Virus record (IMG/VR): IMGVR_UViG_2563366998_000008
Strand: one strand, 5' to 3'
From: a virus
Lineage: Duplodnaviria; Heunggongvirae; Uroviricota; Caudoviricetes
DNA length: 39,748 bases
Position numbers and translations under genes: made by a program. The notes under the pieces were generated by a model. That model made no database searches, had not been told where the DNA came from, and worked only from the letters and a program-made list of their open reading frames with translations. This document shows, piece by piece, positions 3,332 to 39,748 of the stretch (within the stretch, counting starts at the first letter, position 1; each line of letters begins with the position of its first letter).

Positions 3332-3451
3332 ATATTTAGACTAAAGAGTTTGTAACGCTATGTAAGTGATTTTTTCTGGTTTAGATATTTATATGTCCGG
3401 CCAAATTGAGGTGTGTTTAAATGTTATTGCACATTGATTGTAGGGGGAATA

Positions 3452-3631
3452 ATGAAAAACGCATTGCAGTTTTTGTTTGTTGCGTTCTGGTTGTTCGCAT
3501 CATGTATGCCCATCATCTTCACAGCAAGGTATATGGAAAAAATTGATGTTTTGATATTAATGTTTGGACATATAAATGCCCTTTTTTTAGGGGTGTTCAT
3601 GGCGGTCATGTGCATTGAATACTGGCGGTAA
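3452..3631 (+). CDS. possible small hydrophobic membrane protein
   Basis: Short ORF in an AT-rich intergenic region; translation is strongly hydrophobic; no clear RBS seen. Confidence 0.2.
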   Translation: MKNALQFLFVAFWLFASCMPIIFTARYMEKIDVLILMFGHINALFLGVFMAVMCIEYWR

Positions 3632-3833
3632 ATACAGCGAACGCCATTGGTTTAGTTGGATATTTACTGTGCCGGACAAAAACGGTTTGCGGGGAAATCT
3701 TAGTTAAGTAGAATAACTGCGGGTGCTTGAGGCTATCTGTCTCAGGCATGAACACCAAAAGGCAGATAGAGAAAAGCCCCAGTTAACATTACGCGTCCTG
3801 CAAGACGCTTAACATTAATCTGAGGCCATATCT

Positions 3834-3893
3834 ATGCGACACATAGAGATTAGCCTCTTACGGACCGAAAGGTCAAGGAGAAGCAGGCTATGA
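3834..3893 (+). CDS. mok-like leader uORF translationally coupled to hok
   Basis: 19-codon ORF whose TGA (3891-3893) overlaps the hok ATG (3890-3892) as ATGA. Confidence 0.3.
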   Translation: MRHIEISLLRTERSRRSRL

Positions 3894-4045
3894 AGCAGCA
3901 AAAGGCGATGTTAATCGCCCTGATCGTCATCTGTTTAACCGTCATAGTGACGGCACTGGTAACGAGGAAAGACCTCTGCGAGGTACGAATCCGAACCGGC
4001 CAGACGGAGGTCGCTGTCTTCACAGCTTACGAACCTGAGGAGTAA
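3890..4045 (+). CDS. hokD: Hok/Gef family type I toxin (HokD/RelF-like)
   Basis: 51-aa product MKQQKAMLIALIVICLTVIVTALVTRKDLCEVRIRTGQTEVAVFTAYEPEE matches the Hok family as I recall it, likely HokD/RelF; followed by hairpin and terminator. Confidence 0.85.
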   Translation: MKQQKAMLIALIVICLTVIVTALVTRKDLCEVRIRTGQTEVAVFTAYEPEE

Positions 4046-4113
4046 GAGACCAGGCGAGGGAGAAATCCCTCGCCACCTCTGATGTGGCAGGCATCCTCAA
4101 CGCACCCGCACTT

Positions 4114-4140
4114 AACCCGCTTCGGCGGGTTTTTGTTTTT
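4114..4140 (+). terminator. rho-independent terminator after hok
   Basis: Stem AACCCGC / GCGGGTT with TTCG loop followed by a T-run. Confidence 0.5.
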
Positions 4141-4261
4141 ATTTTCAACGCATTTGAAGTTCTGGACGGTGCCGGAATAGAATCAAAAATACTTAAGTAG
4201 CGCGCAGGGATAAGAGGGATGGTCCCTTAAAGGGGAGAGCTAATTATCCGGAAGGATTCTG

Positions 4262-4513
4262 ATGATGAACATCGAAGAACTGCGTAAAATTTTTTGTGAA
4301 GATGGCCTCTATGCTGTGTGCGTTGAAAATGGAAATATTGTTAGCCATTACCGCATTGTGTGTTTGCAAAAAAATGGGGCTGCGTTAATTAATTTTGTGG
4401 ATGCCCGAGTGACGGACGGATTTATCTTGCACGACGGTGAGTTTGTCACTTCATTACAGGCATTGAAAGAGATCGGAATAAAAGCTGGCTTTTCTGCTTT
4501 TTCAGAAGAATAA
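4262..4513 (+). CDS. small phage protein (83 aa), possibly Rem-like
   Basis: ATG 4262 after GGAAGGA; size and position next to hok resemble rem of the E. coli Qin prophage (from memory, unverified). Confidence 0.55.
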   Translation: MMNIEELRKIFCEDGLYAVCVENGNIVSHYRIVCLQKNGAALINFVDARVTDGFILHDGEFVTSLQALKEIGIKAGFSAFSEE

Positions 4514-4579
4514 ACTCATCTACAATCTTGCGCGGGGCTGAACTCCCGCTGAGTAACACCGTGCCACCGGAGAAAACCG

Positions 4580-4858
4580 ATGGCACGCAACGCAAAATAT
4601 TACAATCATGATAATTCGACCGTTCTTGCCCACACGCACGAGCGGTATTCTCATGCATTTAAGTCAGACTGGTACCAGCATCCCCCATGCACTGAAGAAC
4701 AGGCCGAGTGGCTAATTCAGTGCTACCGCAGACACGGATACGAGATTAAGAAAGCCCTCAGCCTCGATTATCGTCACTGGATAATCTCCGTCAGGCTCCC
4801 TTACTCCGAACGGCCACCGCGTCCGTCCCGCACATTCCAGCAACGCATCTGGAGGTAA
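4580..4858 (+). CDS. hypothetical phage protein (92 aa)
   Basis: ATG 4580 with GGAG upstream; stop immediately precedes the next GTG start. Confidence 0.5.
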   Translation: MARNAKYYNHDNSTVLAHTHERYSHAFKSDWYQHPPCTEEQAEWLIQCYRRHGYEIKKALSLDYRHWIISVRLPYSERPPRPSRTFQQRIWR

Positions 4859-4859
4859 C

Positions 4860-5147
4860 GTGCGGGTATTACTTCGACCTGTTCTGGTACCGGAACTTGG
4901 GCTGGTGGTGCTAAAACCGGGCCGTGAATCCATGCCGGTATTCCACAATACCCGGGTACTGGTGGAGCCGGAACCGAAAAGCATGCGTAATCTGTCGTCC
5001 GGGGAGGCGATGTTAATCGCCCTGATCGTCATCTGTTTAACCGTCATAGTGACGGCACTGGTAACGAGGAAAGACCTCTGCGAGGTACGAATCCGAACCG
5101 GCCAGACGGAGGTCGCTGTCTTCACAGCTTACGAACCTGAGGAGTAA
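4860..5147 (+). CDS. chimeric ORF at the duplication junction: DUF968 N-terminus fused in frame to Hok residues 7-51
   Basis: GTG 4860 with GGAGG RBS; first ~47 aa match the start of 5962..7017, remainder is ...MLIALIVICLTVIVTALVTRKDLCEVRIRTGQTEVAVFTAYEPEE. Confidence 0.5.
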   Translation: MRVLLRPVLVPELGLVVLKPGRESMPVFHNTRVLVEPEPKSMRNLSSGEAMLIALIVICLTVIVTALVTRKDLCEVRIRTGQTEVAVFTAYEPEE

Positions 5148-5363
5148 GAGACCAGGCGAGGGAGAAATCCCTCGCCACCTCAGATGTGGCAGGCATCCTC
5201 AACGCACCCGCACTTAACCCGCTTCGGCGGGTTTTTGTTTTTATTTTCAACGCATTTGAAGTTCTGGACGGTGCCGGAATAGAATCAAAAATACTTAAGT
5301 AGCGCGCAGGGATAAGAGGGATGGTCCCTTAAAGGGGAGAGCTAATTATCCGGAAGGATTCTG

Positions 5364-5615
5364 ATGATGAACATCGAAGAACTGCGTAAAATTTTTTGTG
5401 AAGATGGCCTCTATGCTGTGTGCGTTGAAAATGGAAATATTGTTAGCCATTACCGCATTGTGTGTTTGCAAAAAAATGGGGCTGCGTTAATTAATTTTGT
5501 GGATGCTCGAGTGACGGACGGATTTATCTTGCACGACGGTGAGTTTGTCACTTCATTACAGGCATTGAAAGAGATCGGAATAAAAGCTGGCTTTTCTGCT
5601 TTTTCAGAAGAATAA
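5364..5615 (+). CDS. duplicate copy of the 83-aa Rem-like protein
   Basis: Identical translation to 4262..4513. Confidence 0.55.
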   Translation: MMNIEELRKIFCEDGLYAVCVENGNIVSHYRIVCLQKNGAALINFVDARVTDGFILHDGEFVTSLQALKEIGIKAGFSAFSEE

Positions 5616-5681
5616 ACTCATCTACAATCTTGCGCGGGGCTGAACTCCCGCTGAGTAACACCGTGCCACCGGAGAAAACCG

Positions 5682-5960
5682 ATGGCACGCAACGCAAAAT
5701 ATTACAATCATGATAATTCGACCGTTCTTGCCCACACGCACGAGCGGTATTCTCATGCATTTAAGTCAGACTGGTACCAGCATCCCCCATGCACTGAAGA
5801 ACAGGCCGAGTGGCTAATTCAGTGCTACCGCAGACACGGATACGAGATTAAGAAAGCCCTCAGCCTCGATTATCGTCACTGGATAATCTCCGTCAGGCTC
5901 CCTTACTCCGAACGGCCACCGCGTCCGTCCCGCACATTCCAGCAACGCATCTGGAGGTAA
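5682..5960 (+). CDS. duplicate copy of the 92-aa hypothetical protein
   Basis: Identical translation to 4580..4858. Confidence 0.5.
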   Translation: MARNAKYYNHDNSTVLAHTHERYSHAFKSDWYQHPPCTEEQAEWLIQCYRRHGYEIKKALSLDYRHWIISVRLPYSERPPRPSRTFQQRIWR

Positions 5961-5961
5961 C

Positions 5962-7017
5962 GTGCGGGTATTACTTCGACCTGTTCTGGTACCGGAACTC
6001 GGGCTGGTGATCGTTAAACCGGGCCGTGAATCCATGCCGGTATTCCACAATACCCGGGTACTGGTGGAGCCGGAACCGAAAAGCATGCGTAATCTGTCGT
6101 CCGGGGTCGTTCCTGCCGTTCGCCAGCCGCTGGCGGAGGATAAATCATTACTGCCATTTTTCAGCGACGAACGAGTGATTCGTGCTGCTGGTGGCGCTGG
6201 CGCATTGTCTGACTGGTTACTGCGCCATGTTAAATCCTGCCAGTGGCCACACGGCGATTATCACCACAGTGAAACCGTCATTCACCGTTATGGTACCGGC
6301 GCAATGGTGTTGTGCTGGCACTGCGACAACCAGCTGCGCGACCAGACCTCCGAATCACTCGGGCAACTTGCTCACCAAAACCTGTCTGCATGGATGATTG
6401 ACGTCATACGCCATGCAATGAATGGCTCGCAGGAACGGGAATTATCGCTGGCTGAATTATCCTGGTGGGCGGTCCGCAATCAGGTGGCGGACGCGCTACC
6501 GGAAGCGGTATTACGTCGTTCGCTGGGGTTGCGTGCGGAAAAAATCCGCTCAATGTACCGTGAAAGCGACATCGTACCGGGAGAGCAGACCGCCACCAGC
6601 ATACTGAAACAGCGCACAAAAAATCTTGCGCCGCTGCCTCACGCCCACCAGCAAAACCCGCCACAGGAAAAGACGGTGGTCAGCATTGCCGTTGATCCGG
6701 AGTCACCGGCTCAGTATCTCCAGCGCCAGAAACCACAACGGGAAGAGATGCCTGTATACACGCGCTGGGTAAAAACGCAGAAATGCATGACGTGTGGCAA
6801 TCAGGCAGATGATCCGCATCACATCATTGGTCATGGACTGGGAGGGATGGGAACAAAGGCTGACGATTTGTTTGTTATTCCGCTGTGTCGTAAATGCCAT
6901 AACGAACTACACGCCGGGGTAAAAGATTTTGAAGAAAAACACGGTAGTCAGTTGTTGTTGCTGATTCGTTTTTTAATGCACGCGAGAAATTCGGGTGTTC
7001 TGAAGTGGAAAGCATAA
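5962..7017 (+). CDS. DUF968-family phage protein (YdfU-like) with C-terminal Cys/His cluster
   Basis: GTG 5962 after GGAGG; 351 aa; C-terminal CMTCGN...HHIIGHG...CRKCHNELH. Confidence 0.65.
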   Translation: MRVLLRPVLVPELGLVIVKPGRESMPVFHNTRVLVEPEPKSMRNLSSGVVPAVRQPLAEDKSLLPFFSDERVIRAAGGAGALSDWLLRHVKSCQWPHGDYHHSETVIHRYGTGAMVLCWHCDNQLRDQTSESLGQLAHQNLSAWMIDVIRHAMNGSQERELSLAELSWWAVRNQVADALPEAVLRRSLGLRAEKIRSMYRESDIVPGEQTATSILKQRTKNLAPLPHAHQQNPPQEKTVVSIAVDPESPAQYLQRQKPQREEMPVYTRWVKTQKCMTCGNQADDPHHIIGHGLGGMGTKADDLFVIPLCRKCHNELHAGVKDFEEKHGSQLLLLIRFLMHARNSGVLKWKA

Positions 7018-7386
7018 ATGACCGAACGCATAGAATTTGTTTTGCCTTACTCGCCGACGGTGAACACTTACTGGCGACGCCGTGGCAGCACATATTTTGT
7101 ATCAAAAGCCGGGGAGCGTTATCGCCGGGCAGTGGCGCTTATTGTTCGCCAGCAGCGACTGAAATTAAGCCTGTCCGGACGGCTGGCAATAAAAATTATT
7201 GCAGAGCCACCGGATAAGCGTCGTCGTGACCTGGACAATATTCTGAAAGCACCACTGGATGCGCTGACGCACGCGGGGTTGTTAATGGACGATGAGCAGT
7301 TTGATGAAATCAATATTGTACGTGGCCAGCCAGTATCTGGTGGACGGCTGGAGATAAGAATTACAGAGGTGGGTGTGCATGAATAA
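7018..7386 (+). CDS. rusA: RusA-family Holliday junction resolvase
   Basis: 122-aa product with RRRDLDN and GGRLEI motifs resembling E. coli RusA; ATG abuts the upstream stop. Confidence 0.85.
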   Translation: MTERIEFVLPYSPTVNTYWRRRGSTYFVSKAGERYRRAVALIVRQQRLKLSLSGRLAIKIIAEPPDKRRRDLDNILKAPLDALTHAGLLMDDEQFDEINIVRGQPVSGGRLEIRITEVGVHE

Positions 7387-8068
7387 CCAGTATTTACAGT
7401 TTGTTCGTGAGCAACTCATGATTGCCACTGCAGATCTCAGTGGGTCGACAAAATGCCAGCTGGAAGCCTGGCAGGAAAATGCCCTGTTCGATACAGGGCG
7501 TTACAGACGCAAAAAAATTCGTTACCGCGATGAGGTAACCGGAAAAATGATCACGCGGGATAATCCCCCGATCCAGGGTAAACAATCACTGGCGAAAGGC
7601 TCATCAATTGCGCTGGTCAGTCCTGTTGAGTTTGCAACATCATCGTGGCGGCGTGCTGTTCTGGAACTGGAAGAACATCAGAAGGCGTGGTTGTTGTGGT
7701 GTTATGGCGGAAACATTTGCTGGGAGCATCAGATCGCGATAACGCAGTGGGGGTGGAGTGAATTTAAAACTCAGTCCGGCTCCAGAAAAATTGCAGTGAA
7801 AACGCTGGAGCGTGTGAAGAAGTTGATCTGGCTGGCGGCACAGGATGTCAGAGGATGGGTTACCGGGTGTGAGGTCTACCAGAGACAGGAGCTTGCCAGA
7901 CTGTGTGGAGTTAAGCCTGATAACTGGAGCCATAATTATGCGAACTACTGGCGTGAGATGTGCGATATTTTTAAGCGCCTCGATAGAGAATCCTTGATTT
8001 GCTCCGTGAAAATAAGAGCGCAACAAAAAGCGACCTTTTCACGACGAGATATTGCAAAAGTCAATTAA
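7379..8068 (+). CDS. Q: late-gene antiterminator Q-like protein
   Basis: Position directly after rusA and before a promoter/terminator pair and the lysis genes; ATG 7379 with GAGGTGGG RBS; family assignment by context. Confidence 0.6.
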   Translation: MNNQYLQFVREQLMIATADLSGSTKCQLEAWQENALFDTGRYRRKKIRYRDEVTGKMITRDNPPIQGKQSLAKGSSIALVSPVEFATSSWRRAVLELEEHQKAWLLWCYGGNICWEHQIAITQWGWSEFKTQSGSRKIAVKTLERVKKLIWLAAQDVRGWVTGCEVYQRQELARLCGVKPDNWSHNYANYWREMCDIFKRLDRESLICSVKIRAQQKATFSRRDIAKVN

Positions 8069-8791: not shown

Positions 8792-8827
8792 CAGCCCCTC
8801 TCCGGAGGGGCTGTTTATATTGATTTT
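8792..8827 (+). terminator. hairpin with T-rich tail between convergent genes
   Basis: CAGCCCCTC-TCCG-GAGGGGCTG followed by TTTATATTGATTTT. Confidence 0.4.
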
Positions 8828-9632: not shown

Positions 9633-9874
9633 TACTACGTCATCGTACTGGCCCGGCATTCCAGGCCATAAAAGACGGTCTGGCAGTGGGACTAAATGCA
9701 CTGACGCTGACGGATATTACCAAAAATGCAACGTATGGCGTTGAGATAGAAAGTCTGGTGCTGGAGATAAATGCACCGGCATCATCATAAAAAGTGAGCC
9801 AGTCAAATGGAAGGTATCGTTAAACTCACCGGTAGTGTCAGTGGGTCGTCTGAGACGCCTGCATGAGTTATCAG

Positions 9875-9905
9875 AGCCATCAGTACTTAACTGGTGGCTT
9901 TTTTA
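9875..9905 (+). terminator. rho-independent terminator-like hairpin upstream of the holin gene
   Basis: 9-bp stem (AGCCATCAG / CTGGTGGCT, one G-U) followed by a T-run. Confidence 0.4.
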
Positions 9906-16770: not shown

Positions 16771-18359
16771 AACGAACGCCTGTCCTGATTGATGTGAACG
16801 GCGTTCCGCTTCGGGAGAGCCTCAGCTACAACGGGGGCGGCGCAGGATTTGGCGGGCAAATGGCGGAGTGGTTGCCACCGGCGCAGAGTGCCGATGCGGC
16901 CCTGCTGCCCGCGTTGCGTCTGGGGAATGCCCGGGCAGATGATCTGGTGCGCAATAACGGGATAGCGGCCAATGCGGTGGCCCTGCATAAGGATCACATT
17001 GTCGGGCATATGTTTCTTATCAGCTACCGCCCGAACTGGCGCTGGTTGGGGATGCGGGAGACCGCGACAAAAAGTTTTGTCGATGAGGTGGAGGCGGCCT
17101 GGTCAGAATACGCAGAAGGGGTGTTTGGCGAGATCGACGTGGAAGGGAAACGCACGTTTACAGAATTTATTCGTGAAGGTGTGGGCGTTCATGCGTTTAA
17201 CGGCGAAATCTTTGTGCAGCCGGTCTGGGATCCGGAGAGCACGCAACTGTTTCGTACGCGTTTTAAAGCCGTGAGTCCGAAACGGGTGGACACGCCAGGA
17301 CATGGTATCGGGAACCGTTTTCTGCGGGCCGGGGTGGAGGTCGATCGATATGGTCGTGCCGTTGCGTACCATATCTGTGAGGATGATTTTCCGTTCTCCG
17401 GGAGTGGACGATGGGAACGGATCCCGCGTGAACTTCCCACCGGGCGTCCGGCCATGCTGCATATTTTCGAGCCGGTGGAGGACGGGCAGACCCGTGGGGC
17501 TAATCAGTTTTACAGCGTTATGGAACGGCTGAAGATGCTCGATTCCCTGCAGGCAACACAGCTTCAGTCGGCCATAGTGAAGGCGATGTATGCAGCGACG
17601 ATTGAAAGTGACCTTGATACCGAAAAGGCCTTTGAATATATCGCCGGTGCGCCGCAGGGGCAGAAGGATAATCCGCTTATTAATATTCTGGATAAGTTCT
17701 CCACCTGGTATGACACGAATAGCGTGACGCTGGGCGGTGTCAAAATTCCGCACCTTTTCCCCGGTGATGATCTGAAACTTCAGACCGCGCAGGATTCAGA
17801 CAATGGATTTTCGGCGCTTGAACAGGCGCTGCTGCGGTATATCGCCGCCGGTCTTGGCGTTTCCTACGAACAGTTGTCCCGTGATTACTCGAAGGTCAGT
17901 TATTCAAGTGCCCGCGCATCCGCCAATGAGTCGTGGCGCTATTTTATGGGGCGGCGAAAATTTATTGCGTCCCGGCTGGCCACGCAGATGTTTTCCTGCT
18001 GGCTGGAAGAGGCACTTCTTCGGGGGATTATTCGTCCGCCACGGGCACGTTTTGATTTTTATCAGGCGCGATCAGCCTGGTCACGGGCTGAGTGGATTGG
18101 AGCCGGAAGAATGGCCATTGACGGGCTCAAGGAGGTTCAGGAATCAGTGATGCGCATTGAGGCCGGACTGAGCACGTATGAGAAAGAGCTGGCGCTGATG
18201 GGCGAGGATTATCAGGACATTTTCCGCCAGCAGGTCAGGGAATCTGCAGAGCGGGAAAAAGCCGGACTCTCACGTCCGGTGTGGATAGCGCAGGCGTATC
18301 AGCAGCAGATAGCGGAGAGTCGCAGGCCGGAAGAGGAGACAACACCACGTGAGACGTAA
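16767..18359 (+). CDS. B: portal protein (gpB-like)
   Basis: 530-aa ORF in the lambda B position, overlapping W stop. Confidence 0.9.
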   Translation: MKRTPVLIDVNGVPLRESLSYNGGGAGFGGQMAEWLPPAQSADAALLPALRLGNARADDLVRNNGIAANAVALHKDHIVGHMFLISYRPNWRWLGMRETATKSFVDEVEAAWSEYAEGVFGEIDVEGKRTFTEFIREGVGVHAFNGEIFVQPVWDPESTQLFRTRFKAVSPKRVDTPGHGIGNRFLRAGVEVDRYGRAVAYHICEDDFPFSGSGRWERIPRELPTGRPAMLHIFEPVEDGQTRGANQFYSVMERLKMLDSLQATQLQSAIVKAMYAATIESDLDTEKAFEYIAGAPQGQKDNPLINILDKFSTWYDTNSVTLGGVKIPHLFPGDDLKLQTAQDSDNGFSALEQALLRYIAAGLGVSYEQLSRDYSKVSYSSARASANESWRYFMGRRKFIASRLATQMFSCWLEEALLRGIIRPPRARFDFYQARSAWSRAEWIGAGRMAIDGLKEVQESVMRIEAGLSTYEKELALMGEDYQDIFRQQVRESAEREKAGLSRPVWIAQAYQQQIAESRRPEEETTPRET

Positions 18360-19797
18360 TCTTTCACACATTATTGCCGCAGCATTCAATGAACCGCTGC
18401 TTCTGGAGCCCGCCTATGCGCGGGTTTTCTTTTGCGCGCTCGGGCGCGAGATAGGGGCAGCAAGTCTTTCGGTACCACAACAACAGGTACAGCTTGATGC
18501 TCCCGGAATGCTGGCTGAAACGGACGAGTACATGGCCGGAGGTAAACGACCGGCCCGTGTTTACCGGGTGGTGAACGGTATTGCTGTACTGCCGGTGACC
18601 GGCACGCTGGTGCACCGGCTGGGCGGTATGCGGCCATTTTCCGGAATGACAGGCTATGACGGCATTGTCGCCTGTCTTCAGCAGGCAATGGCGGATAGCC
18701 AGGTGCGGGGCGTACTGCTGGACATTGACAGTCCGGGCGGGCAGGCCGCCGGCGCGTTTGACTGCGCTGACATGATTTACCGCCTCCGTCAGCAGAAGCC
18801 GGTCTGGGCACTGTGCAATGACACTGCCTGTTCTGCAGCCATGCTGCTGGCGTCGGCCTGCTCCCGACGGCTGGTTACCCAGACATCCCGTATCGGCTCC
18901 ATTGGCGTGATGATGAGCCATGTCAGCTATGCCGGTCATCTGGCGCAGGCCGGTGTGGATATCACGCTGATTTATGCCGGGGCGCACAAGGTGGATGGCA
19001 ATCAGTTTGAAGCGTTGCCGGCAGAGGTTCGCCAGGACATGCAGCAGCGGATTGATGCGGCGCACCGGATGTTTGCCGAAAAAGTGGCGATGTATACCGG
19101 GTTGTCTGTGGATGCGGTCACGGGAACAGAGGCCGCCGTTTTTGAAGGTCAGTCCGGCATTGAGGCCGGGCTGGCGGATGAATTAATCAATGCGTCGGAT
19201 GCCATCAGTGTGATGGCCACGGCGCTGAACAGTAATGTCAGAGGAGGCACTATGCCGCAATTAACTGCAACGGAAGCCGCCGTGCAGGAGAACCAGCGAG
19301 TGATGGGGATCCTGACATGCCAGGAAGCGAAAGGACGTGAACAGCTTGCCACGATGCTGGCAGGGCAACAGGGCATGAGCGTTGAACAGGCCCGGGCGAT
19401 TCTGGCCGCGGCGGCACCGCAGCAGCCGGTGGCATCCGCGCAGAGTGAAGCCGATCGCATTATGGCGTGTGAAGAAGCGAACGGTCGTGAACAACTGGCG
19501 GCTGCACCACTGGCGGATGCCGGGCCCTCACTTCGTGATCAGATCATGGCCCTGGATGAGGCAAAAGGGGCAGAAGCGCAGGCTGAAAAACTGGCGGCCT
19601 GCCCGGGAATGACCGTGGAGAACGCCCGGGCTGTGCTGGCTGCGGGATCAGGTAAGGCCGAACCGGTCTCTGCATCCACAACCGCCCTGTTTGAACATTT
19701 CATGGCGAATCATTCACCGGCAGCGGTGCGGGGTGGCGTGTCACAGACGTCAGCAGACGGTGATGCGGACGTGAAAATGCTCATGGCCATGCCATGA
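18349..19797 (+). CDS. C: prohead protease / scaffold (gpC-like, S49/ClpP-like) with Nu3-like C-terminal scaffold region
   Basis: GTG 18349 overlapping the B stop; S49-like core (GVLLDIDSPGG...); C-terminal Ala/Gln-rich internal repeats. Confidence 0.8.
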   Translation: MRRNLSHIIAAAFNEPLLLEPAYARVFFCALGREIGAASLSVPQQQVQLDAPGMLAETDEYMAGGKRPARVYRVVNGIAVLPVTGTLVHRLGGMRPFSGMTGYDGIVACLQQAMADSQVRGVLLDIDSPGGQAAGAFDCADMIYRLRQQKPVWALCNDTACSAAMLLASACSRRLVTQTSRIGSIGVMMSHVSYAGHLAQAGVDITLIYAGAHKVDGNQFEALPAEVRQDMQQRIDAAHRMFAEKVAMYTGLSVDAVTGTEAAVFEGQSGIEAGLADELINASDAISVMATALNSNVRGGTMPQLTATEAAVQENQRVMGILTCQEAKGREQLATMLAGQQGMSVEQARAILAAAAPQQPVASAQSEADRIMACEEANGREQLAAAPLADAGPSLRDQIMALDEAKGAEAQAEKLAACPGMTVENARAVLAAGSGKAEPVSASTTALFEHFMANHSPAAVRGGVSQTSADGDADVKMLMAMP

Positions 19798-19833
19798 AGT
19801 CAGTGCTGACCATCAATATGAGGTTTTAACAAA

Positions 19834-20181
19834 ATGGTGACGAAAACCATCACTGAACAGCGTGCGGAAGTACGTATTTTTGCCGGTAATGATCCGGCTC
19901 ATACCGCCACAGGCAGCAGCGGGATTTCTTCCGCAACACCGGCTCTGACGCCCCTGATGCTGGATGAAGCCACCGGGAAACTGGTGGTCTGGGATGGACA
20001 GAAAGCCGGTAGTGCGGTTGGCATACTGGTACTGCCGCTTGAAGGCACAGAGACAGCGCTGACGTATTACAAGTCGGGAACCTTTGCGACGGAGGCAATC
20101 CACTGGCCTGAAAGTGTGGATGAACACAAAAAGGCAAATGCCTTTGCCGGCACAGCCCTGAGTCACGCGGCTCTGCCGTAA
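19834..20181 (+). CDS. D: head decoration protein (gpD-like)
   Basis: ...NDPAHTATG...TPLMLD...KLVVWDG...YYKSGTF...AFAGTA matches lambda gpD. Confidence 0.85.
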   Translation: MVTKTITEQRAEVRIFAGNDPAHTATGSSGISSATPALTPLMLDEATGKLVVWDGQKAGSAVGILVLPLEGTETALTYYKSGTFATEAIHWPESVDEHKKANAFAGTALSHAALP

Positions 20182-20204
20182 CACGTTATCAGGCCACCAT
20201 GGTG

Positions 20205-20930
20205 GCCTGACTGATTGTGCACAGAAAACCCCCAGCTAGGCTGGGGGTTCCGGAAAGCTTTCAGCTTTGAGCCAGTTATTAAAACCCCTTTTGATTTGTT
20301 AAAACACCTTGCGGTCTGGCAACTGCAAGTGTCAAACAAGAAATCAAAAGGGGGTCCCAATGGGGAACGAAAAGAGCTTAGCGCACACCCGATGGAACTG
20401 TAAATATCACATAGTTTTTGCGCCAAAATACCGAAGACAGGTGTTCTACAGAGAGAAGCGTAGAGCAATAGGCAGTATTTTGAGAAAGCTGTGTGAGTGG
20501 AAAAGCGTACGGATTCTGGAAGCTGAATGCTGTGCAGATCATATCCATATGCTTGTGGAGATCCCGCCTAAAATGAGCGTATCCGGGTTTATGGGATATC
20601 TGAAAGGGAAAAGCAGTCTGATGCTTTACGAGCAGTTTGGTGATTTGAAATTCAAATACAGGAACAGGGAGTTCTGGTGCAGAGGGTACTACGTCGATAC
20701 AGTGGGTAAGAACACGGCGAAGATACAGGATTACATAAAGCACCAGCTTGAAGAGGATAAAATGGGAGAGCAGTTATCGATTCCCTATCCGGGCAGCCCG
20801 TTTACGGGCCGTAAGTAACGAAGTTGGATGCAAATGTCAGATCGTGTGCGCCTGTTAGGGCGCGGCTGGTAAGAGAGCCTTATAGGCGCATTTGAAAAAC
20901 CTCCGGCTATGCCGGAGGATATTTATTTTC
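20205..20930 (+). mobile_element. IS200-family insertion sequence (boundaries approximate, +/- 30 bp)
   Basis: Y1 transposase gene flanked by subterminal perfect hairpins (CCCCCAGC-TAGG-CTGGGGG near the left end; CTCCGGC-TAT-GCCGGAG near the right); enlarges the D-E gap to 769 bp. Confidence 0.75.
20360..20818 (+). CDS. tnpA: IS200/IS605-family Y1 (HUH) transposase TnpA
   Basis: MGNEKSLAHTRWNCKYHIVFAPKYRR...HIHMLVEIPPK...YLKGKSS characteristic of IS200 TnpA. Confidence 0.9.
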   Translation: MGNEKSLAHTRWNCKYHIVFAPKYRRQVFYREKRRAIGSILRKLCEWKSVRILEAECCADHIHMLVEIPPKMSVSGFMGYLKGKSSLMLYEQFGDLKFKYRNREFWCRGYYVDTVGKNTAKIQDYIKHQLEEDKMGEQLSIPYPGSPFTGRK

Positions 20931-20950
20931 TGAATGAAAGGAACTGATTT

Positions 20951-21979
20951 ATGGGATTGTTTACGACCCGCCAGTTACTCGGTTATACCGAACAAAAAGT
21001 TAAATTCCGTGCGCTATTTCTGGAGCTGTTTTTCCGCCGTACGGTGAATTTCCACACCGAAGAGGTGATGCTGGACAAAATTACCGGAAAAACGCCGGTG
21101 GCGGCCTATGTCTCCCCGATCGTTGAAGGAAAAGTGCTGCGCCATCGTGGTGGTGAAACCCGCGTGTTGCGTCCGGGCTACGTCAAGCCGAAACACGAAT
21201 TTAATTACCAGCAGGCGGTTGAGCGCCTTCCTGGTGAAGATCCATCTCAACTGAATGATCCGGCTTACCGCCGTCTGCGTATCATTACCGATAACCTCAA
21301 ACAGGAAGAGCACGCCATTGTCCAGGTGGAAGAAATGCAGGCGGTAAATGCTGTGTTGTATGGCAAATACACCATGGAAGGAGACCAGTTCGAGAAAATT
21401 GAGGTCGATTTTGGCAGGTCGACGAAGAATAACATCACTCAGGGTAGTGGTAAGGAGTGGTCAAAACAGGATCGTGACACGTTCGATCCTACACATGATA
21501 TTGACCTCTACTGCGACCAGGCCAGCGGTCTTGTGAATATTGCCATTATGGACGGTACCGGCTGGCGTCTTCTGAATGGTTTTAAGCTGTTCCGCGAAAA
21601 ACTGGATACCCGTCGCGGTTCAAATTCTCAACTCGAAACGGCAGTGAAAGATCTGGGCGCAGTGGTGTCCTTCAAGGGGTATTACGGCGATCTGGCCATT
21701 GTGGTGGCGAAAACGTCTTATATAGCAGAAGACGGTATCGAAAAACGTTATCTTCCAGATGGCATGCTGGTTCTGGGGAATACTGCTGCAGATGGGATCC
21801 GTTGTTACGGTGCCATTCAGGATGCTCAGGCGTTGTCCGAAGGTGTGGTGGCCTCTTCCCGTTATCCGAAACACTGGCTGACGGTAGGGGATCCCGCCCG
21901 TGAATTTACCATGACGCAGTCCGCGCCGCTGATGGTGTTGCCGGACCCGGATGAGTTTGTGGTGGTACAGGTGAAATAA
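20951..21979 (+). CDS. E: major capsid protein (gpE-like)
   Basis: Extensive similarity to lambda gpE (YVSPIV.G.V...PGYVKPKHE, DTRRGSNS.LETAVKDLG, TMTQSAPLM). Confidence 0.95.
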   Translation: MGLFTTRQLLGYTEQKVKFRALFLELFFRRTVNFHTEEVMLDKITGKTPVAAYVSPIVEGKVLRHRGGETRVLRPGYVKPKHEFNYQQAVERLPGEDPSQLNDPAYRRLRIITDNLKQEEHAIVQVEEMQAVNAVLYGKYTMEGDQFEKIEVDFGRSTKNNITQGSGKEWSKQDRDTFDPTHDIDLYCDQASGLVNIAIMDGTGWRLLNGFKLFREKLDTRRGSNSQLETAVKDLGAVVSFKGYYGDLAIVVAKTSYIAEDGIEKRYLPDGMLVLGNTAADGIRCYGAIQDAQALSEGVVASSRYPKHWLTVGDPAREFTMTQSAPLMVLPDPDEFVVVQVK

Positions 21980-22030
21980 TCCGTGAGCGGGGGCGAAATG
22001 CCCCCGTGTCTTTTTTCACAGGGGGCTGAT

Positions 22031-22766: not shown

Positions 22767-23300
22767 ATGGCGATAAAAGGGCTTGATCAGGCGATTGATA
22801 ATCTGAGCCGGGTTCGTAAAAACGCCATTCCGGCGGCTTCAGCAATGACGATTAACCGCGTGGCCACAACGGCGATTAATCAGTCTTCATCACAGGTTGC
22901 CCGGGAGACAAAGGTACGCCGGAAACTGGTTAAGGAACGGTCCAGACTGAAACGGGCGACGGTCAGAAATCCGAACGCAAAAATTATCGTTAACCGCGGT
23001 GATCTTCCAGTGATTAAGCTGGGGATCAGGATGCTGGGCCGTCGTCCGAACAGCATACTTAAAGCCGGTCAGCATCGGTATCAGCGGGCATTCATTCAGC
23101 GATTAAAAAACGGTCGCTGGCATGTCATGCAGCGTGTGGCCGGGAAAAACCGTTACCCTATTGATGTGGTGAAAATCCCGATGGCGGCCCCACTGAAACA
23201 GGCGTTTGATGAGAATGTTGACCGTATCCGGCGTGAACGCCTGCCCGGAGAACTGGCATCCGCGCTGAAACAACAACTGAGGATTGCGATAAAACGATGA
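22767..23300 (+). CDS. Z: tail completion protein Z
   Basis: MAIKGLDQAIDNLSR...QVARETKVRRKLVKER.RLKRATV...NGRWHVMQRVAGKNRYPIDVVKIPMA matches lambda gpZ. Confidence 0.85.
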   Translation: MAIKGLDQAIDNLSRVRKNAIPAASAMTINRVATTAINQSSSQVARETKVRRKLVKERSRLKRATVRNPNAKIIVNRGDLPVIKLGIRMLGRRPNSILKAGQHRYQRAFIQRLKNGRWHVMQRVAGKNRYPIDVVKIPMAAPLKQAFDENVDRIRRERLPGELASALKQQLRIAIKR

Positions 23301-35044: not shown

Positions 35045-35078
35045 AAGCCCGTGGCGTCACTGCTGCGGGCTTTTTTTA
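35045..35078 (+). terminator. terminator-like hairpin after lom
   Basis: AAGCCCG ... CGGGCTT stem followed by TTTTTTT. Confidence 0.45.
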
Positions 35079-35091
35079 TTGGTGGAAAAGT

Positions 35092-38118: not shown

Positions 38119-38702
38119 TGGCATTCAGAATGAGTGAACAAGCACGGACCATAAAAATTTATAATCTGCTGGCCGGAACTAATGAATTTATTGGTGAAGG
38201 TGACGCATATATTCCGCCTCATACAGGTCTGCCAGCAAACAGTACCGATATTGCACCACCAGATATTCCTGCTGGCTTTGTGGCTGTTTTCAACAGTGAT
38301 GAGGCATCGTGGCATCTCGTTGAAGACCATCGGGGGAAAACGGTTTATGACGTAGCGTCAGGGGACGAGTTATTTATTTCTGAACTCGGTCCGTTACCGG
38401 AAAATGTTACCTGGTTATCGCCGGAAGGGGAGTTTCAGAAGTGGAACGGCACAGCCTGGGTGAAGGATACGGAAGCAGAAAAACTGTTCCGGATCCGGGA
38501 GGCGGAAGAAACAAAAAACAACCTGATGCAGGTAGCCAGTGAGCATATTGCGCCGCTTCAGGATGCTGCAGATCTGGAAATTGCAACGGAGGAAGAAACC
38601 TCATTGCTGGAAGCCTGGAAAAAGTATCGGGTGTTGCTGAACCGTGTTGATACATCAACTGCACCTGATATTGAGTGGCCTACGAACCCTGTCAGGGAGT
38701 AA
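38118..38702 (+). CDS. tfa: tail fiber assembly protein (Tfa)
   Basis: 194 aa; start overlaps stf stop (TAATG); typical Tfa C-terminus. Confidence 0.9.
38538..38702 (+). repeat. tfa 3' segment, direct repeat copy A
   Basis: ~165 bp, roughly 85-90% identical by eye to 39587..39748. Confidence 0.8.
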
Positions 38703-38756: not shown

Positions 38757-39413
38757 CTATTTTTTCCCTGAAGCGGAAAACATTACTACAGTACCTTGAA
38801 CCTTGGTTTTAACATTCTCGAAATGCTCTGAGAGTATATGTGTTAAGCCTTCTTCGGAATCTTTTGTGTTTGAAAAGATGCCTTTCTGATTGTAAATGCG
38901 CATCAGTTTTTGACCGAAGCTATTGTGCACAACTCCATCGCCAAGAATTGTGGCTCCGTATAGAGTTCCATCGTCAGTTAAGGCCTGCGCCGCATTGCGT
39001 ATTACACAGCTTTTTGTAGATATATTTCCAGGCAGGCAGTGAAGAAGGTAAAACATGGAAATGGAATCAAATTGACCATGTAACGCCGCGGGATAAGGTT
39101 CAAAAACATCATGGCTAATTTTATGTTTAATTTTTGATTCCCCAGCCCTTGTAGATGCCGCGTTCAGGCTAGCTTCGTTCAAATCCATTAAAGATATCAG
39201 ACTACTCTCAGGTACGTGAGTAAGGTAAAACCCAGTTCCAACACCAATATCCAGATGGTTGTTACCTACATGTTCCAGAAAGTGTGGAAGAAGGTGTTCC
39301 TTTGTAGGACATCCCCATGCAAGCCGATTTGATACTCCCAAAACCCACCAGTCATAAAGCTTTAGGGTAAGTGGTGTGTAAATTTTAGCCCCATCATCTG
39401 TGTTTTTTTTCAT
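38757..39413 (-). CDS. class I SAM-dependent methyltransferase
   Basis: Minus-strand ORF; HLDIGVGTGFY glycine-rich SAM-binding motif and downstream acidic motif LMDLNE; AT-rich relative to neighbours; likely start at the second ATG (39411-39413) with GGTGA upstream. Confidence 0.7.
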   Translation of the reverse strand: MKKNTDDGAKIYTPLTLKLYDWWVLGVSNRLAWGCPTKEHLLPHFLEHVGNNHLDIGVGTGFYLTHVPESSLISLMDLNEASLNAASTRAGESKIKHKISHDVFEPYPAALHGQFDSISMFYLLHCLPGNISTKSCVIRNAAQALTDDGTLYGATILGDGVVHNSFGQKLMRIYNQKGIFSNTKDSEEGLTHILSEHFENVKTKVQGTVVMFSASGKK

Positions 39414-39481
39414 TGATTTCACCATGTTATAGTTTTATTTGTGAATTAAATCAATTATGGCGATGAATTACAAGGGGTTAA

Positions 39482-39748
39482 ATGCTGCCGCAGCATAGCG
39501 ATATTGAAATAGCCTGGTATGCTTCGATACAGCAGGAGCCGAATGACTGGAAGACCGTCACCACACAGTTCCACATCCAGGAATTCAGTGAGTATATTGC
39601 GCCACTGCAGGATGCTGTAGATCTGGAAATCGCAACGGCGGAAGAAAGATCGTTGCTGGAGGCATGGAATAAATATCGGGTATTGTTGAATCGTGTTGAT
39701 ACATCAACTGCACCTGATATTGAGTGGCCGACTTCACCTGCAGAGTAA
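39482..39748 (+). CDS. short Tfa-like protein (C-terminal Tfa domain only, 88 aa)
   Basis: ATG 39482 after AAGGGG; C-terminal ~50 aa nearly identical to the C-terminus of the tfa product; stop at window end. Confidence 0.55.
39587..39748 (+). repeat. tfa 3' segment, direct repeat copy B
   Basis: Imperfect direct repeat of 38538..38702, flanking the methyltransferase gene. Confidence 0.8.

What the first reader, a model, noticed from the sequence alone, without database searches (positions are those of the whole stretch)
20182..20950. IS200 element inserted between head genes D and E, co-oriented with the late operon
Seen in sequence: the D-E gap is 769 bp and contains an IS200-type Y1 transposase gene (20360..20818) flanked by stable perfect hairpins. 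Established knowledge: IS200 ends carry terminator-like stem-loops. Inference: the insertion may be polar on E (major capsid) and everything downstream unless Q-modified polymerase reads through, so the prophage could be attenuated for particle production despite intact structural genes. An additional perfect palindrome AGGCCACCATGGTGGCCT lies at 20191-20208.
Basis: partly seen in the sequence, partly recalled or inferred. Interest (0 to 1): 0.5.

Follow-up and report, generated by a model that had tools for sequence, protein, structure and literature searches.

The report
IS200C insertion between prophage head genes
This is an ordinary, intact copy of the common insertion sequence IS200C sitting between the decoration and major capsid genes of a lambda-like E. 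coli prophage, just after a native DNA hairpin of the type this element usually inserts behind, and it probably does not cripple the phage.

Summary
A 711-bp IS200C (window 20217-20927, + strand) lies in the gap between the head decoration gene (D/shp) and the major capsid gene (E/gene 7), co-oriented with the late operon. An empty allele with 100% identical flanks exists in many E. coli genomes and in all 21 isolated phages that carry this head module. The transposase is intact, and the 5' region matches Rfam STnc490.

The "additional palindrome" (20190-20209) is native phage DNA and probably explains the position. Across 42 distinct IS200 junctions, 37 have a terminator-like hairpin plus T-rich tail directly against the left end, and all 39 junctions with a scorable hairpin end in TT. 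The D-E site fits this pattern: hairpin, then ACTGATT, then the IS. The association with terminators is already published as a statistical observation.

The polarity idea is untested, and the evidence leans against it:
- The prophage encodes a Q antiterminator.
- The late operon already holds strong native terminator-like hairpins, one of them directly after E.
- E keeps its ribosome-binding site.
- All late genes are full length.
- Two deposited phage genomes carry the same IS inside the tR2-like terminator of the early rightward operon.

This is a known element with a known kind of placement, so interest is low.

The parts
19834..20181 (+). Head decoration gene (lambda D / phage 21 shp homologue), intact, directly upstream of the insertion
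   Evidence: PF02924 E=3e-25. 100% identical to RefSeq WP_000256814.1. The head module is of phage 21 shp/gene 7 type.
20190..20209 (+). Native phage hairpin CAGGCCACCATGGTGGCCTG; proposed target structure for the IS
   Evidence: Present in the empty allele with identical flanks. Folds at -17.4 kcal/mol, z=-4.0. A variant with CGCG at the centre occurs in other occupied alleles.
20210..20216 (+). Target tail ACTGATT, 7 nt between the hairpin and the IS left end, ending in TT
   Evidence: All 39 junctions with a scorable hairpin end in TT. In 36 of 39 the distance from the G+C stem to the junction is 6-9 nt.
20217..20927 (+). IS200C, 711 bp, from GTGCAC to GGAGGATATTTATT
   Evidence: Empty versus occupied alignment. 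The right end is common to 28 distinct junctions. A tandem IS-IS junction TATT|GTGC occurs in L049. An exact empty/occupied pair exists at the lom-stf site. 100% identical copies occur in other genomes.
20227..20249 (+). Left-end hairpin (IS nt 11-33), corresponding to the published bidirectional terminator that shields tnpA from outside transcription
   Evidence: Fold at -18.7 kcal/mol. First helix of the Rfam STnc490 model. Role taken from Ellis et al. 2015, PMC4513863.
20227..20350 (+). tnpA 5' leader / art200 (STnc490) region
   Evidence: Rfam RF01405, 146.4 bits against a gathering score of 56, E=2e-31, full length 1-124.
20285..20353 (+). Stem-loop that sequesters the tnpA ribosome-binding site (IS nt 69-137)
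   Evidence: Fold at -34.8 kcal/mol, z=-5.2. Matches the published nt 69-138.
20360..20818 (+). tnpA, 152-aa Y1 HUH transposase, intact
   Evidence: PF01797 E=3.8e-38. Aligns with solved TnpA structures 2ec2, 2a6m and 2vhg, with the HIH motif and the C-terminal Tyr conserved. 100% identical to WP_000526135.1.
20900..20918 (+). Right-end hairpin CCTCCGGCTATGCCGGAGG; terminator-like on both strands
   Evidence: Terminator scan. Fold at -15.9 kcal/mol, z=-3.6.
20919..20927 (+). Right-end tail ATATTTATT, 9 nt from the hairpin to the IS end
   Evidence: Point at which 28 distinct right junctions diverge.
20928..20928 (+). One extra T at the right junction relative to the empty allele (which T of the run is arbitrary)
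   Evidence: The window, L002 and L068 have TT before CTGAATG. L069 and L070 have one T, the number expected from the empty allele once the left junction is accounted for.
20939..20942 (+). Ribosome-binding site of the major capsid gene, intact, 12 nt downstream of the IS
   Evidence: Read from the sequence. Annotated as the RBS at the homologous position in phage 21 record M81255.
20951..21979 (+). Major capsid gene (lambda E / phage 21 gene 7 homologue), intact
   Evidence: PF03864 E=3e-63. Full-length alignment to the RefSeq protein at 99.7%.
7379..8068 (+). Q antiterminator gene of the same prophage (context for read-through)
   Evidence: 100% identical to the L003 protein, which matches PF06323 at E=2e-82.
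21987..22007 (+). Native terminator-like hairpin directly after E (context: the late operon already needs read-through)
   Evidence: Terminator scan: 9-bp stem, 7 G-C pairs, T-rich tail.

Best explanation
This is an intact IS200C, a member of the IS200 group of the IS200/IS605 family. It has a single tnpA gene for a Y1 HUH transposase, subterminal hairpins and no terminal inverted repeats. It inserted into the 57-bp spacer between the decoration and major capsid genes of a lambdoid prophage with a phage 21-type head.

Shown:
- It is an insertion relative to an otherwise identical empty allele.
- It is 711 bp long.
- Its left end lies 7 nt after a native G+C-rich hairpin, next to a tail that ends in TT.
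- Nearly all other IS200 copies sampled have the same kind of junction: a hairpin, then 6-9 T-rich nt ending in TT, then the IS.

Inferred:
- Like IS608, the element moved as single-stranded DNA and integrated 3' of a short T-rich sequence. That sequence would be recognised by the A-rich bases (GAAAA) that sit 5' of both of its own hairpins.
- A hairpin followed by a T-rich tail is favoured as a target because it resembles the element's own right end (hairpin + ATATTTATT).
- The insertion has little effect on the phage. Late transcription from a Q-modified, termination-resistant polymerase should pass the IS hairpins as it must pass the native ones, and E keeps its own ribosome-binding site.
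- In the lysogen, tnpA stays silent through the left-end terminator, the stem-loop that hides its ribosome-binding site, and the antisense RNA art200.
For: Identity of the element:
- Pfam Y1_Tnp E=3.8e-38.
- HUH motif and catalytic Tyr aligned to solved TnpA structures.
- Rfam STnc490 at 146 bits.
- Hairpins and the leader stem-loop at the published positions.
- RefSeq names the identical protein an IS200C transposase.

It is an insertion:
- The empty allele has a 57-bp gap and 100% identical flanks.
- All 21 close phage-record matches to this junction (95-97% identity) are empty.
- This junction type occurs in 1868 genomes and is occupied in 9.

Ends of the element:
- A common right end across 28 junctions.
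- A tandem junction TATT|GTGC in L049.
- An exact empty/occupied pair at the lom-stf terminator.

Target pattern:
- 37 of 42 junctions pass a strict terminator-like test, against 0.4% of random positions.
- Only 9.5-14% of random T-rich pentamers have such a hairpin.
- Spacing is 6-9 nt in 36 of 39, and 39 of 39 end in TT.
- The association is published: PMC13548323.

Likely tolerance by the phage:
- Q gene present.
- Native + strand terminator-like hairpins at 8792-8813, 9873-9901 and 21987-22007.
- All late genes full length.
- IS200C sits co-oriented inside the tR2-like terminator between ren and ninB in two deposited phage genomes.
- Q makes polymerase read through terminators (abstract of bioRxiv 10.1101/651190).
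Against: - No expression or particle data exist for this prophage.
- IS200 was discovered as a polar insertion (hisD984), and its left-end hairpin is reported to block incoming transcription. Some reduction of E relative to D is therefore plausible.
- The D-E target lacks a true T-run (ACTGATT), so it is an atypical member of the target class and failed my strict terminator test.
- The hairpin preference could partly reflect survival of harmless insertions rather than true targeting.
- None of the 21 isolated phages with this head module carries the IS at D-E. That is also what one would expect if the insertion were harmful, although the site is rarely occupied anyway (9 of 1868 genomes).
- I did not verify that Lambda_ev058 and PhiR63_2 were sequenced from virions.
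Confidence: 0.85

Rival explanations
1. Polar insertion. The left-end and right-end terminator hairpins of IS200 stop a substantial share of late transcripts before E. Capsid and all downstream genes would then be under-expressed, and the prophage would make few or no particles despite intact genes.
For: IS200 was first found as a polar hisD insertion, and its left-end hairpin is described as a bidirectional terminator that protects against incoming transcription. The right-end hairpin plus ATATTTATTTT scores as terminator-like 32 nt before the E start. No isolated phage with this head module carries the IS at D-E. The site is occupied in only 9 of 1868 genomes that have the junction.
Against: The Q antiterminator is present and intact. 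The late operon already contains native hairpins of equal or greater strength, including one directly after E, so tail genes could not be expressed without read-through. The same IS is carried co-oriented upstream of Q in two deposited phage genomes. IS-bearing prophages have no decayed late genes.
Confidence: 0.15
2. The hairpin association is survivorship rather than targeting. IS200C would insert at any T-rich single-stranded site, and only copies that land just past terminators, where they disrupt nothing, persist long enough to be sequenced. On this view the D-E hairpin is coincidental.
For: Terminator-proximal intergenic positions are among the least harmful places in a compact phage genome. 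The published analysis treats the pattern as a niche property and not as a cleavage specificity.
Against: The spacing is narrow (6-9 nt from the G+C stem in 36 of 39 junctions), and every junction ends in TT. Non-coding T-rich pentamers have a hairpin only 14% of the time. The element's own right end has the same layout, and a second copy has inserted exactly at it. The same nucleotide position is used in at least three flank haplotypes and in two different prophages.
Confidence: 0.2
3. Co-opted element. The IS is kept because it benefits the prophage or the host. It might tune the D:E expression ratio through partial termination, or supply the Hfq-binding RNAs art200 and 5'tnpA.
For: IS200-derived RNAs regulate host genes in Salmonella (PMC5435999). 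The insertion is found with several flank haplotypes and in two different prophages.
Against: Fewer than 0.5% of prophages with this junction carry it. The element is identical to mobile copies elsewhere and shows no site-specific changes. Host genomes already hold other IS200C copies that make the same RNAs.
Confidence: 0.04

Closest known systems
IS200 / IS200C (IS200 group of the IS200/IS605 family; Salmonella and E. coli)
   Same: Size of about 707-711 bp and a single 152-aa Y1 transposase. Left-end terminator hairpin at about nt 11-34, stem-loop over the ribosome-binding site at nt 69-138, and the STnc490/art200 region. No inverted repeats. Identical protein and DNA occur in many E. coli genomes.
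   Different: Only the location differs. The copy here has one extra T at the right junction.
IS200C inside the tR2-like terminator (ren-ninB) of Escherichia phages Lambda_ev058 and PhiR63_2
   Same: The same element (100% and 98.6% identity), co-oriented with an antiterminated phage operon. It is inserted 8 nt after a G+C-rich hairpin, at ...TTTTTATT|.
   Different: That site is in the early rightward (N-dependent) operon and is a true hairpin plus T-run terminator. The D-E hairpin is followed by ACTGATT.
IS608 / ISDra2 (mechanistic models of the family)
   Same: HUH/Y1 TnpA, subterminal hairpins, and insertion 3' of a short sequence without target duplication. The bases 5' of each hairpin foot (GAAAA here) are complementary in character to the T-rich cleavage sites; this last point is my inference from the IS608 model.
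   Different: There is no tnpB. The preferred target appears to include an adjacent hairpin, which is not part of the IS608 tetranucleotide rule.
Bacterial group IIC introns
   Same: They home to positions just after intrinsic-terminator or attC stem-loops, which are recognised as structure (background in PMC7923331).
   Different: They are retroelements with a ribozyme and reverse transcriptase. The chemistry and proteins are unrelated.
Published survey of IS niches (ISME J 2026, PMC13548323)
   Same: It reports terminator-like sequences strongly over-represented immediately upstream of ISs, most strongly for IS200/IS605.
   Different: It is statistical and family-wide, and it reads the pattern as limiting transposase expression. 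In the passages I read, it does not give the junction-level pattern (6-9 nt, TT end, resemblance to the right end) seen here.

Membership tests
IS200/IS605 family, IS200 group | Y1 (HUH, single catalytic Tyr) transposase TnpA | tested here: met
   PF01797 at 130.7 bits against a cut-off of 23. Aligns to solved TnpA structures at E=4e-23 to 1e-14. The motif DHIHMLV aligns to DHIHLFV, and the Tyr in DYIKHQ aligns to that in KYIEEQ.
IS200/IS605 family, IS200 group | Subterminal hairpins at both ends and no terminal inverted repeats | tested here: met
   Left-end hairpin at 20227-20249 and right-end hairpin at 20900-20918. By inspection, the ends GTGCACAGAAAA... and ...GGATATTTATT are not reverse complements of each other.
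IS200/IS605 family, IS200 group | Insertion without target-site duplication, 3' of a short specific sequence | tested here: inconclusive
   The lom-stf site and the L069/L070 alleles of the D-E site show an exact 711-bp insertion with no duplication. The window copy has one extra T, which could be slippage in a T-run or a 1-nt duplication. All junctions follow ...TT.
IS200/IS605 family, IS200 group | tnpA alone (no tnpB), element of about 0.7 kb | tested here: met
   711 bp. The only ORF with a family match is tnpA.
IS200 proper (IS200C) | Leader architecture: terminator hairpin at nt 12-34, stem-loop at nt 69-138 over the ribosome-binding site, art200/STnc490 region | tested here: met
   Hairpin at IS nt 11-33 and stem-loop at nt 69-137. 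RF01405 full-length match at 146 bits. Published layout in PMC4513863.
IS200 proper (IS200C) | Near-identity to copies named IS200C | tested here: met
   100% DNA identity over 712 nt to copies annotated as IS200C in at least 10 RefSeq genomes. The protein is identical to WP_000526135.1.
IS200/IS605 family | Single-strand 'peel and paste' transposition through a circular intermediate | not testable with these tools
   Only indirect evidence: a tandem right-end/left-end junction with no extra bases in L049.
Intrinsic (Rho-independent) terminator: the native D-E hairpin | G+C-rich stem-loop immediately followed by a U-run | tested here: not met
   The stem is strong, but in the empty allele the tail is ACUGAUUUCUG. 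The site is not called by the terminator scan and fails the test of at least 5 T in 8. It is a hairpin, not a canonical terminator.
Polar insertion mutation | Reduced expression of genes downstream in the same operon | not testable with these tools
   Needs RNA or protein measurement after induction. Only circumstantial arguments are available.

The most novel reading that the evidence does not exclude
IS200C may actively home to structures made of a hairpin plus a T-rich tail because they mimic its own right end. Copies that land in antiterminated phage operons (the late operon here, the early rightward operon at tR2 in other phages) would then gain a conditional switch. In the lysogen, tnpA is doubly insulated. 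On induction, N- or Q-modified polymerase overrides the left-end terminator and floods the cell with tnpA transcript, just when replicating phage DNA offers abundant single-stranded targets and the element is about to be packaged. Transposition and horizontal spread would thus be coupled to the phage lytic cycle.
Probability: 0.12. Interest if true: 0.5.

Novelty: already known. Interest (0 to 1): 0.15.

Why it matters
Mostly for annotation. The gap between the two head genes is a mobile element, not phage sequence, and prophage-intactness calls should not count it as a lesion without evidence.

It is also a clean natural example of the IS200 placement pattern, because empty and occupied alleles with identical flanks both exist. 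That makes this locus convenient for two experiments:
- Does Q-dependent antitermination neutralise the IS200 terminators?
- Is the hairpin preference true targeting or only survivorship?

None of this changes current understanding.

Tried and rejected
- Native phage "moron" instead of an insertion: rejected by the empty allele.
- IS ends at the gap borders 20182/20950: rejected. The ends are 20217/20927.
- One insertion event or several at this site: I compared the IS and its flanks among five occupied alleles. The window and L070 differ at 5 of 711 positions in the IS but at only 5 of 1950 in the flanks, and they differ in the junction T count. L069 and L070 share the IS (1 of 711 differences) but differ at 69 of 1050 positions in E. 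The pattern fits recurrent insertion and/or recombination, and I could not separate the two.
- Outward promoter that could drive E: no promoter-like site in 19500-21500.
- Automatic naming of genes that flank IS200 in viral contigs, using a simple longest-ORF rule: too noisy to tabulate. It picked a spurious antisense ORF over D. I used only clear cases (lom-stf, tape measure, ren-ninB).
- Literature: Odaert et al. 1998 on IS1541 insertion sites is not held. Searches for the paper describing Lambda_ev058 found nothing. That these phage records come from virions therefore rests on the record type and my recollection, not on a source I read.
- Orientation relative to replication (lagging-strand template bias of the family): not tested.

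Full report
**What is in the window**

The window is a lambdoid prophage read from its replication region to its tail fibres. It is collinear with, and 98.7-99.96% identical to, a prophage next to potB in E. coli EC190329. In the region of the finding:
- A lambda D-type decoration gene lies at 19834-20181.
- A lambda E-type major capsid gene lies at 20951-21979.
- They are separated by 769 bp that hold a 152-aa ORF at 20360-20818 on the same strand. This ORF matches the IS200-like Y1 transposase family at E=3.8e-38.
- The head module is that of phage 21, where the two genes are called shp and gene 7.

- Left: 20227-20249, 10-bp stem.
- Right: 20900-20918, 8-bp stem, z=-3.6.
- The palindrome is a 20-nt perfect palindrome at 20190-20209 (z=-4.0, no shuffle folds as well).

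Rfam's STnc490 family, which covers the IS200 leader, matches 20227-20350 at 146 bits against a threshold of 56.

**It is an insertion, and its ends can be fixed**

Many complete E. coli genomes carry the same D and E genes with 100% identical flanks and only a 57-bp spacer. Alignment of empty and occupied alleles shows 712 extra bases after ...GGCCTGACTGATT.

I compared the right junctions of all IS200 copies collected. These came from 62 viral contigs found with the left-end hairpin as a pattern, two phage records and five E. coli loci. They share sequence up to ...GGAGGATATTTATT and diverge after it.

Two further results confirm these ends:
- One contig (L049) has two copies in tandem joined as TATT|GTGC with nothing between them.
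- The lom-stf spacer of this same window (GCGGGC, seven T, then ATTGG) is the exact empty form of a site occupied in contig L024. The sum there works only if the element is GTGCAC...TATT with no duplication.

The element is therefore 20217-20927, 711 bp. The copy in the window has one extra T at its right junction. Two other E. coli strains with the IS at the same site lack that T.

**Identity**

- The transposase aligns over its whole length with solved TnpA structures, with the His-hydrophobic-His motif and the C-terminal tyrosine in place.
- It is identical to the RefSeq protein annotated as the IS200C transposase.
- The left-end hairpin falls at element positions 11-33. A strong stem-loop (z=-5.2) covers positions 69-137 and ends just before the start codon. 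Ellis et al. 2015 place a bidirectional terminator at nt 12-34 and a stem-loop over the ribosome-binding site at nt 69-138. They also describe the antisense RNA art200 (formerly STnc490) across the same leader (PMC4513863).
- Copies 100% identical over all 712 nt occur in other genomes. IS200C-like sequence is found in 3100 of 5426 complete E. coli genomes, with a median of 2 places and up to 35.

This is an ordinary, apparently functional IS200C.

**The palindrome is the phage's own and probably explains the position**

The palindrome is present in the empty allele. The IS left end lies 7 nt after it.

I examined 42 distinct left junctions:
- 37 have a stem of at least 6 bp with at least 3 G-C pairs, ending within 10 nt of the junction and followed by a T-rich tail. 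Only 0.4% of random positions in the same contigs meet this test.
- Among the 39 junctions with a scorable hairpin, every one ends in TT.
- In 36 of those 39, the distance from the G+C stem to the junction is 6-9 nt.
- T-richness alone does not explain this. Only 9.5% of random TTTTT/TTATT/TGATT sites, and 14% of such sites outside long ORFs, have a comparable hairpin.

The element's own right end has the same layout: a hairpin followed by the 9 nt ATATTTATT. Both of its hairpins are preceded by GAAAA. By analogy with IS608, these bases could be the guide that pairs with a T-rich cleavage site. That step is inference.

The D-E site is a slightly atypical member of the class. It has a strong hairpin, correct spacing and a TT end, but its tail is ACTGATT and not a T-run.

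The general association is already published. A survey of IS niches found terminator-like sequences over-represented immediately upstream of ISs, most strongly for IS200/IS605 (bioRxiv 10.1101/2025.07.22.666184 and ISME J 2026, PMC13548323). I cannot exclude that part of the pattern reflects survival of harmless insertions. The narrow spacing and the tandem junction argue for real targeting.

**How common is this particular insertion**

- The D-E junction of this type occurs in 1868 of 5426 genomes (2920 places).
- It is occupied by the IS in nine genomes.
- It is empty in all 21 close phage-record matches to this junction (95-97% identity).
- The occupied alleles include at least three D haplotypes, two hairpin-centre variants, two IS variants and two junction forms.
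- In strain NMBU-W13E19 the IS-bearing head module belongs to a different prophage. That prophage is integrated at ompW, not next to potB, and has a different antiterminator gene and early region.

This fits repeated use of one hot spot and/or exchange of head modules by recombination. The data do not separate the two.

**Is it polar?**

This cannot be tested here.

- IS200 was discovered as a polar hisD mutation, and its left-end hairpin is reported to stop incoming transcription.
- The right-end hairpin with its T-rich tail looks like a terminator 32 nt before the E start.

Against it:
- The prophage has an intact Q antiterminator gene at 7379-8068. Q converts polymerase to a form that reads through terminators (abstract of bioRxiv 10.1101/651190).
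- The late operon already holds strong + strand terminator-like hairpins at 8792-8813, 9873-9901 and, directly after E, 21987-22007. Tail genes could not be expressed without read-through there.
- The ribosome-binding site of E is intact, 12 nt beyond the IS.
- Every late gene from the terminase to the tail fibre is full length.
- Two records deposited as complete phage genomes, Lambda_ev058 and PhiR63_2, carry the same IS in the same orientation inside the tR2-like terminator between ren and ninB. That position is upstream of Q in the N-antiterminated operon.

From general knowledge of lambda genetics, not checked here, polarity of IS insertions in lambda operons is suppressed by antitermination.

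I judge a near-neutral insertion more likely than an attenuating one. A modest reduction of E expression remains possible.

**Verdict**

This is a known element in a known kind of place, already annotated as IS200C at this same site in nine RefSeq genomes. The polarity hypothesis is reasonable but is probably offset by Q-dependent read-through. The palindrome is the native target structure, not an unrelated extra feature.

The most novel reading I cannot exclude is that copies in antiterminated phage operons use induction as a conditional switch for transposase expression. I give it low probability.

Noticed in passing
window 3903-5004 and 5005-6106: A perfect 1102-bp tandem duplication relative to the near-identical prophage in EC190329. 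It duplicates the hokD-rem-hypothetical region. The junction at 5004/5005 joins the first 48 codons of the DUF968 gene to hokD from about codon 5, so a DUF968-HokD chimeric reading frame may exist. It could be real or an assembly artefact.
   Followed up: partly
window about 19495-19502 (within the S49 protease/scaffold gene 18349-19797): An in-frame 57-nt (19-aa) deletion relative to the RefSeq alleles. It lies in a region of repeated EAxGREQLA-like motifs. The protein is 482 aa instead of 501 aa.
   Followed up: partly
window 35047-35080 (lom-stf spacer): A hairpin GCCCGTGGCGTCACTGCTGCGGGC followed by seven T is unoccupied here. The identical site carries an IS200 in viral contig L024. The homologous lom-stf terminator of a related phage type is occupied in eight further contigs (the L011/L025 group).
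   Followed up: partly
window 21987-22007: A strong terminator-like hairpin (9-bp stem, 7 G-C pairs, T-rich tail) lies 8 nt after the major capsid stop codon, inside the late operon. It looks like another potential IS200 target and is unoccupied.
   Followed up: no
L049 (IMGVR_UViG_2814123192_000002), about 3444-4863 on the reverse strand: Two IS200-like copies (about 87% identical to the window copy) in direct tandem. The right end of one abuts the left end of the next with no intervening base.
   Followed up: partly
L053 (IMGVR_UViG_2534681672_000003), about 3611-4321: An IS200C lies immediately upstream of a different E-type major capsid gene, but antisense to that operon. Its left flank has only a weak hairpin. 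This is one of the few junctions that does not fit the hairpin pattern.
   Followed up: no
window 22767-23300: The tail-completion (Z-like) gene is 14 aa shorter than, and only 87% identical to, the EC190329 allele, while neighbouring genes are 100% identical. This is a local mosaic patch.
   Followed up: no
window 38537-38680 and 39586-39729: Direct repeats (about 89% identical) of a tail-fibre-assembly gene fragment flank a reverse-strand SAM-dependent methyltransferase gene (38760-39425) at the prophage end.
   Followed up: no
L004/L005 (tR2 site) and the window versus L069/L070 (D-E site): At two independent sites, occupied alleles differ by exactly one T at the right IS junction. This suggests slippage in the junction T-run or a 1-nt variation in where strand transfer occurs.
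   Followed up: partly
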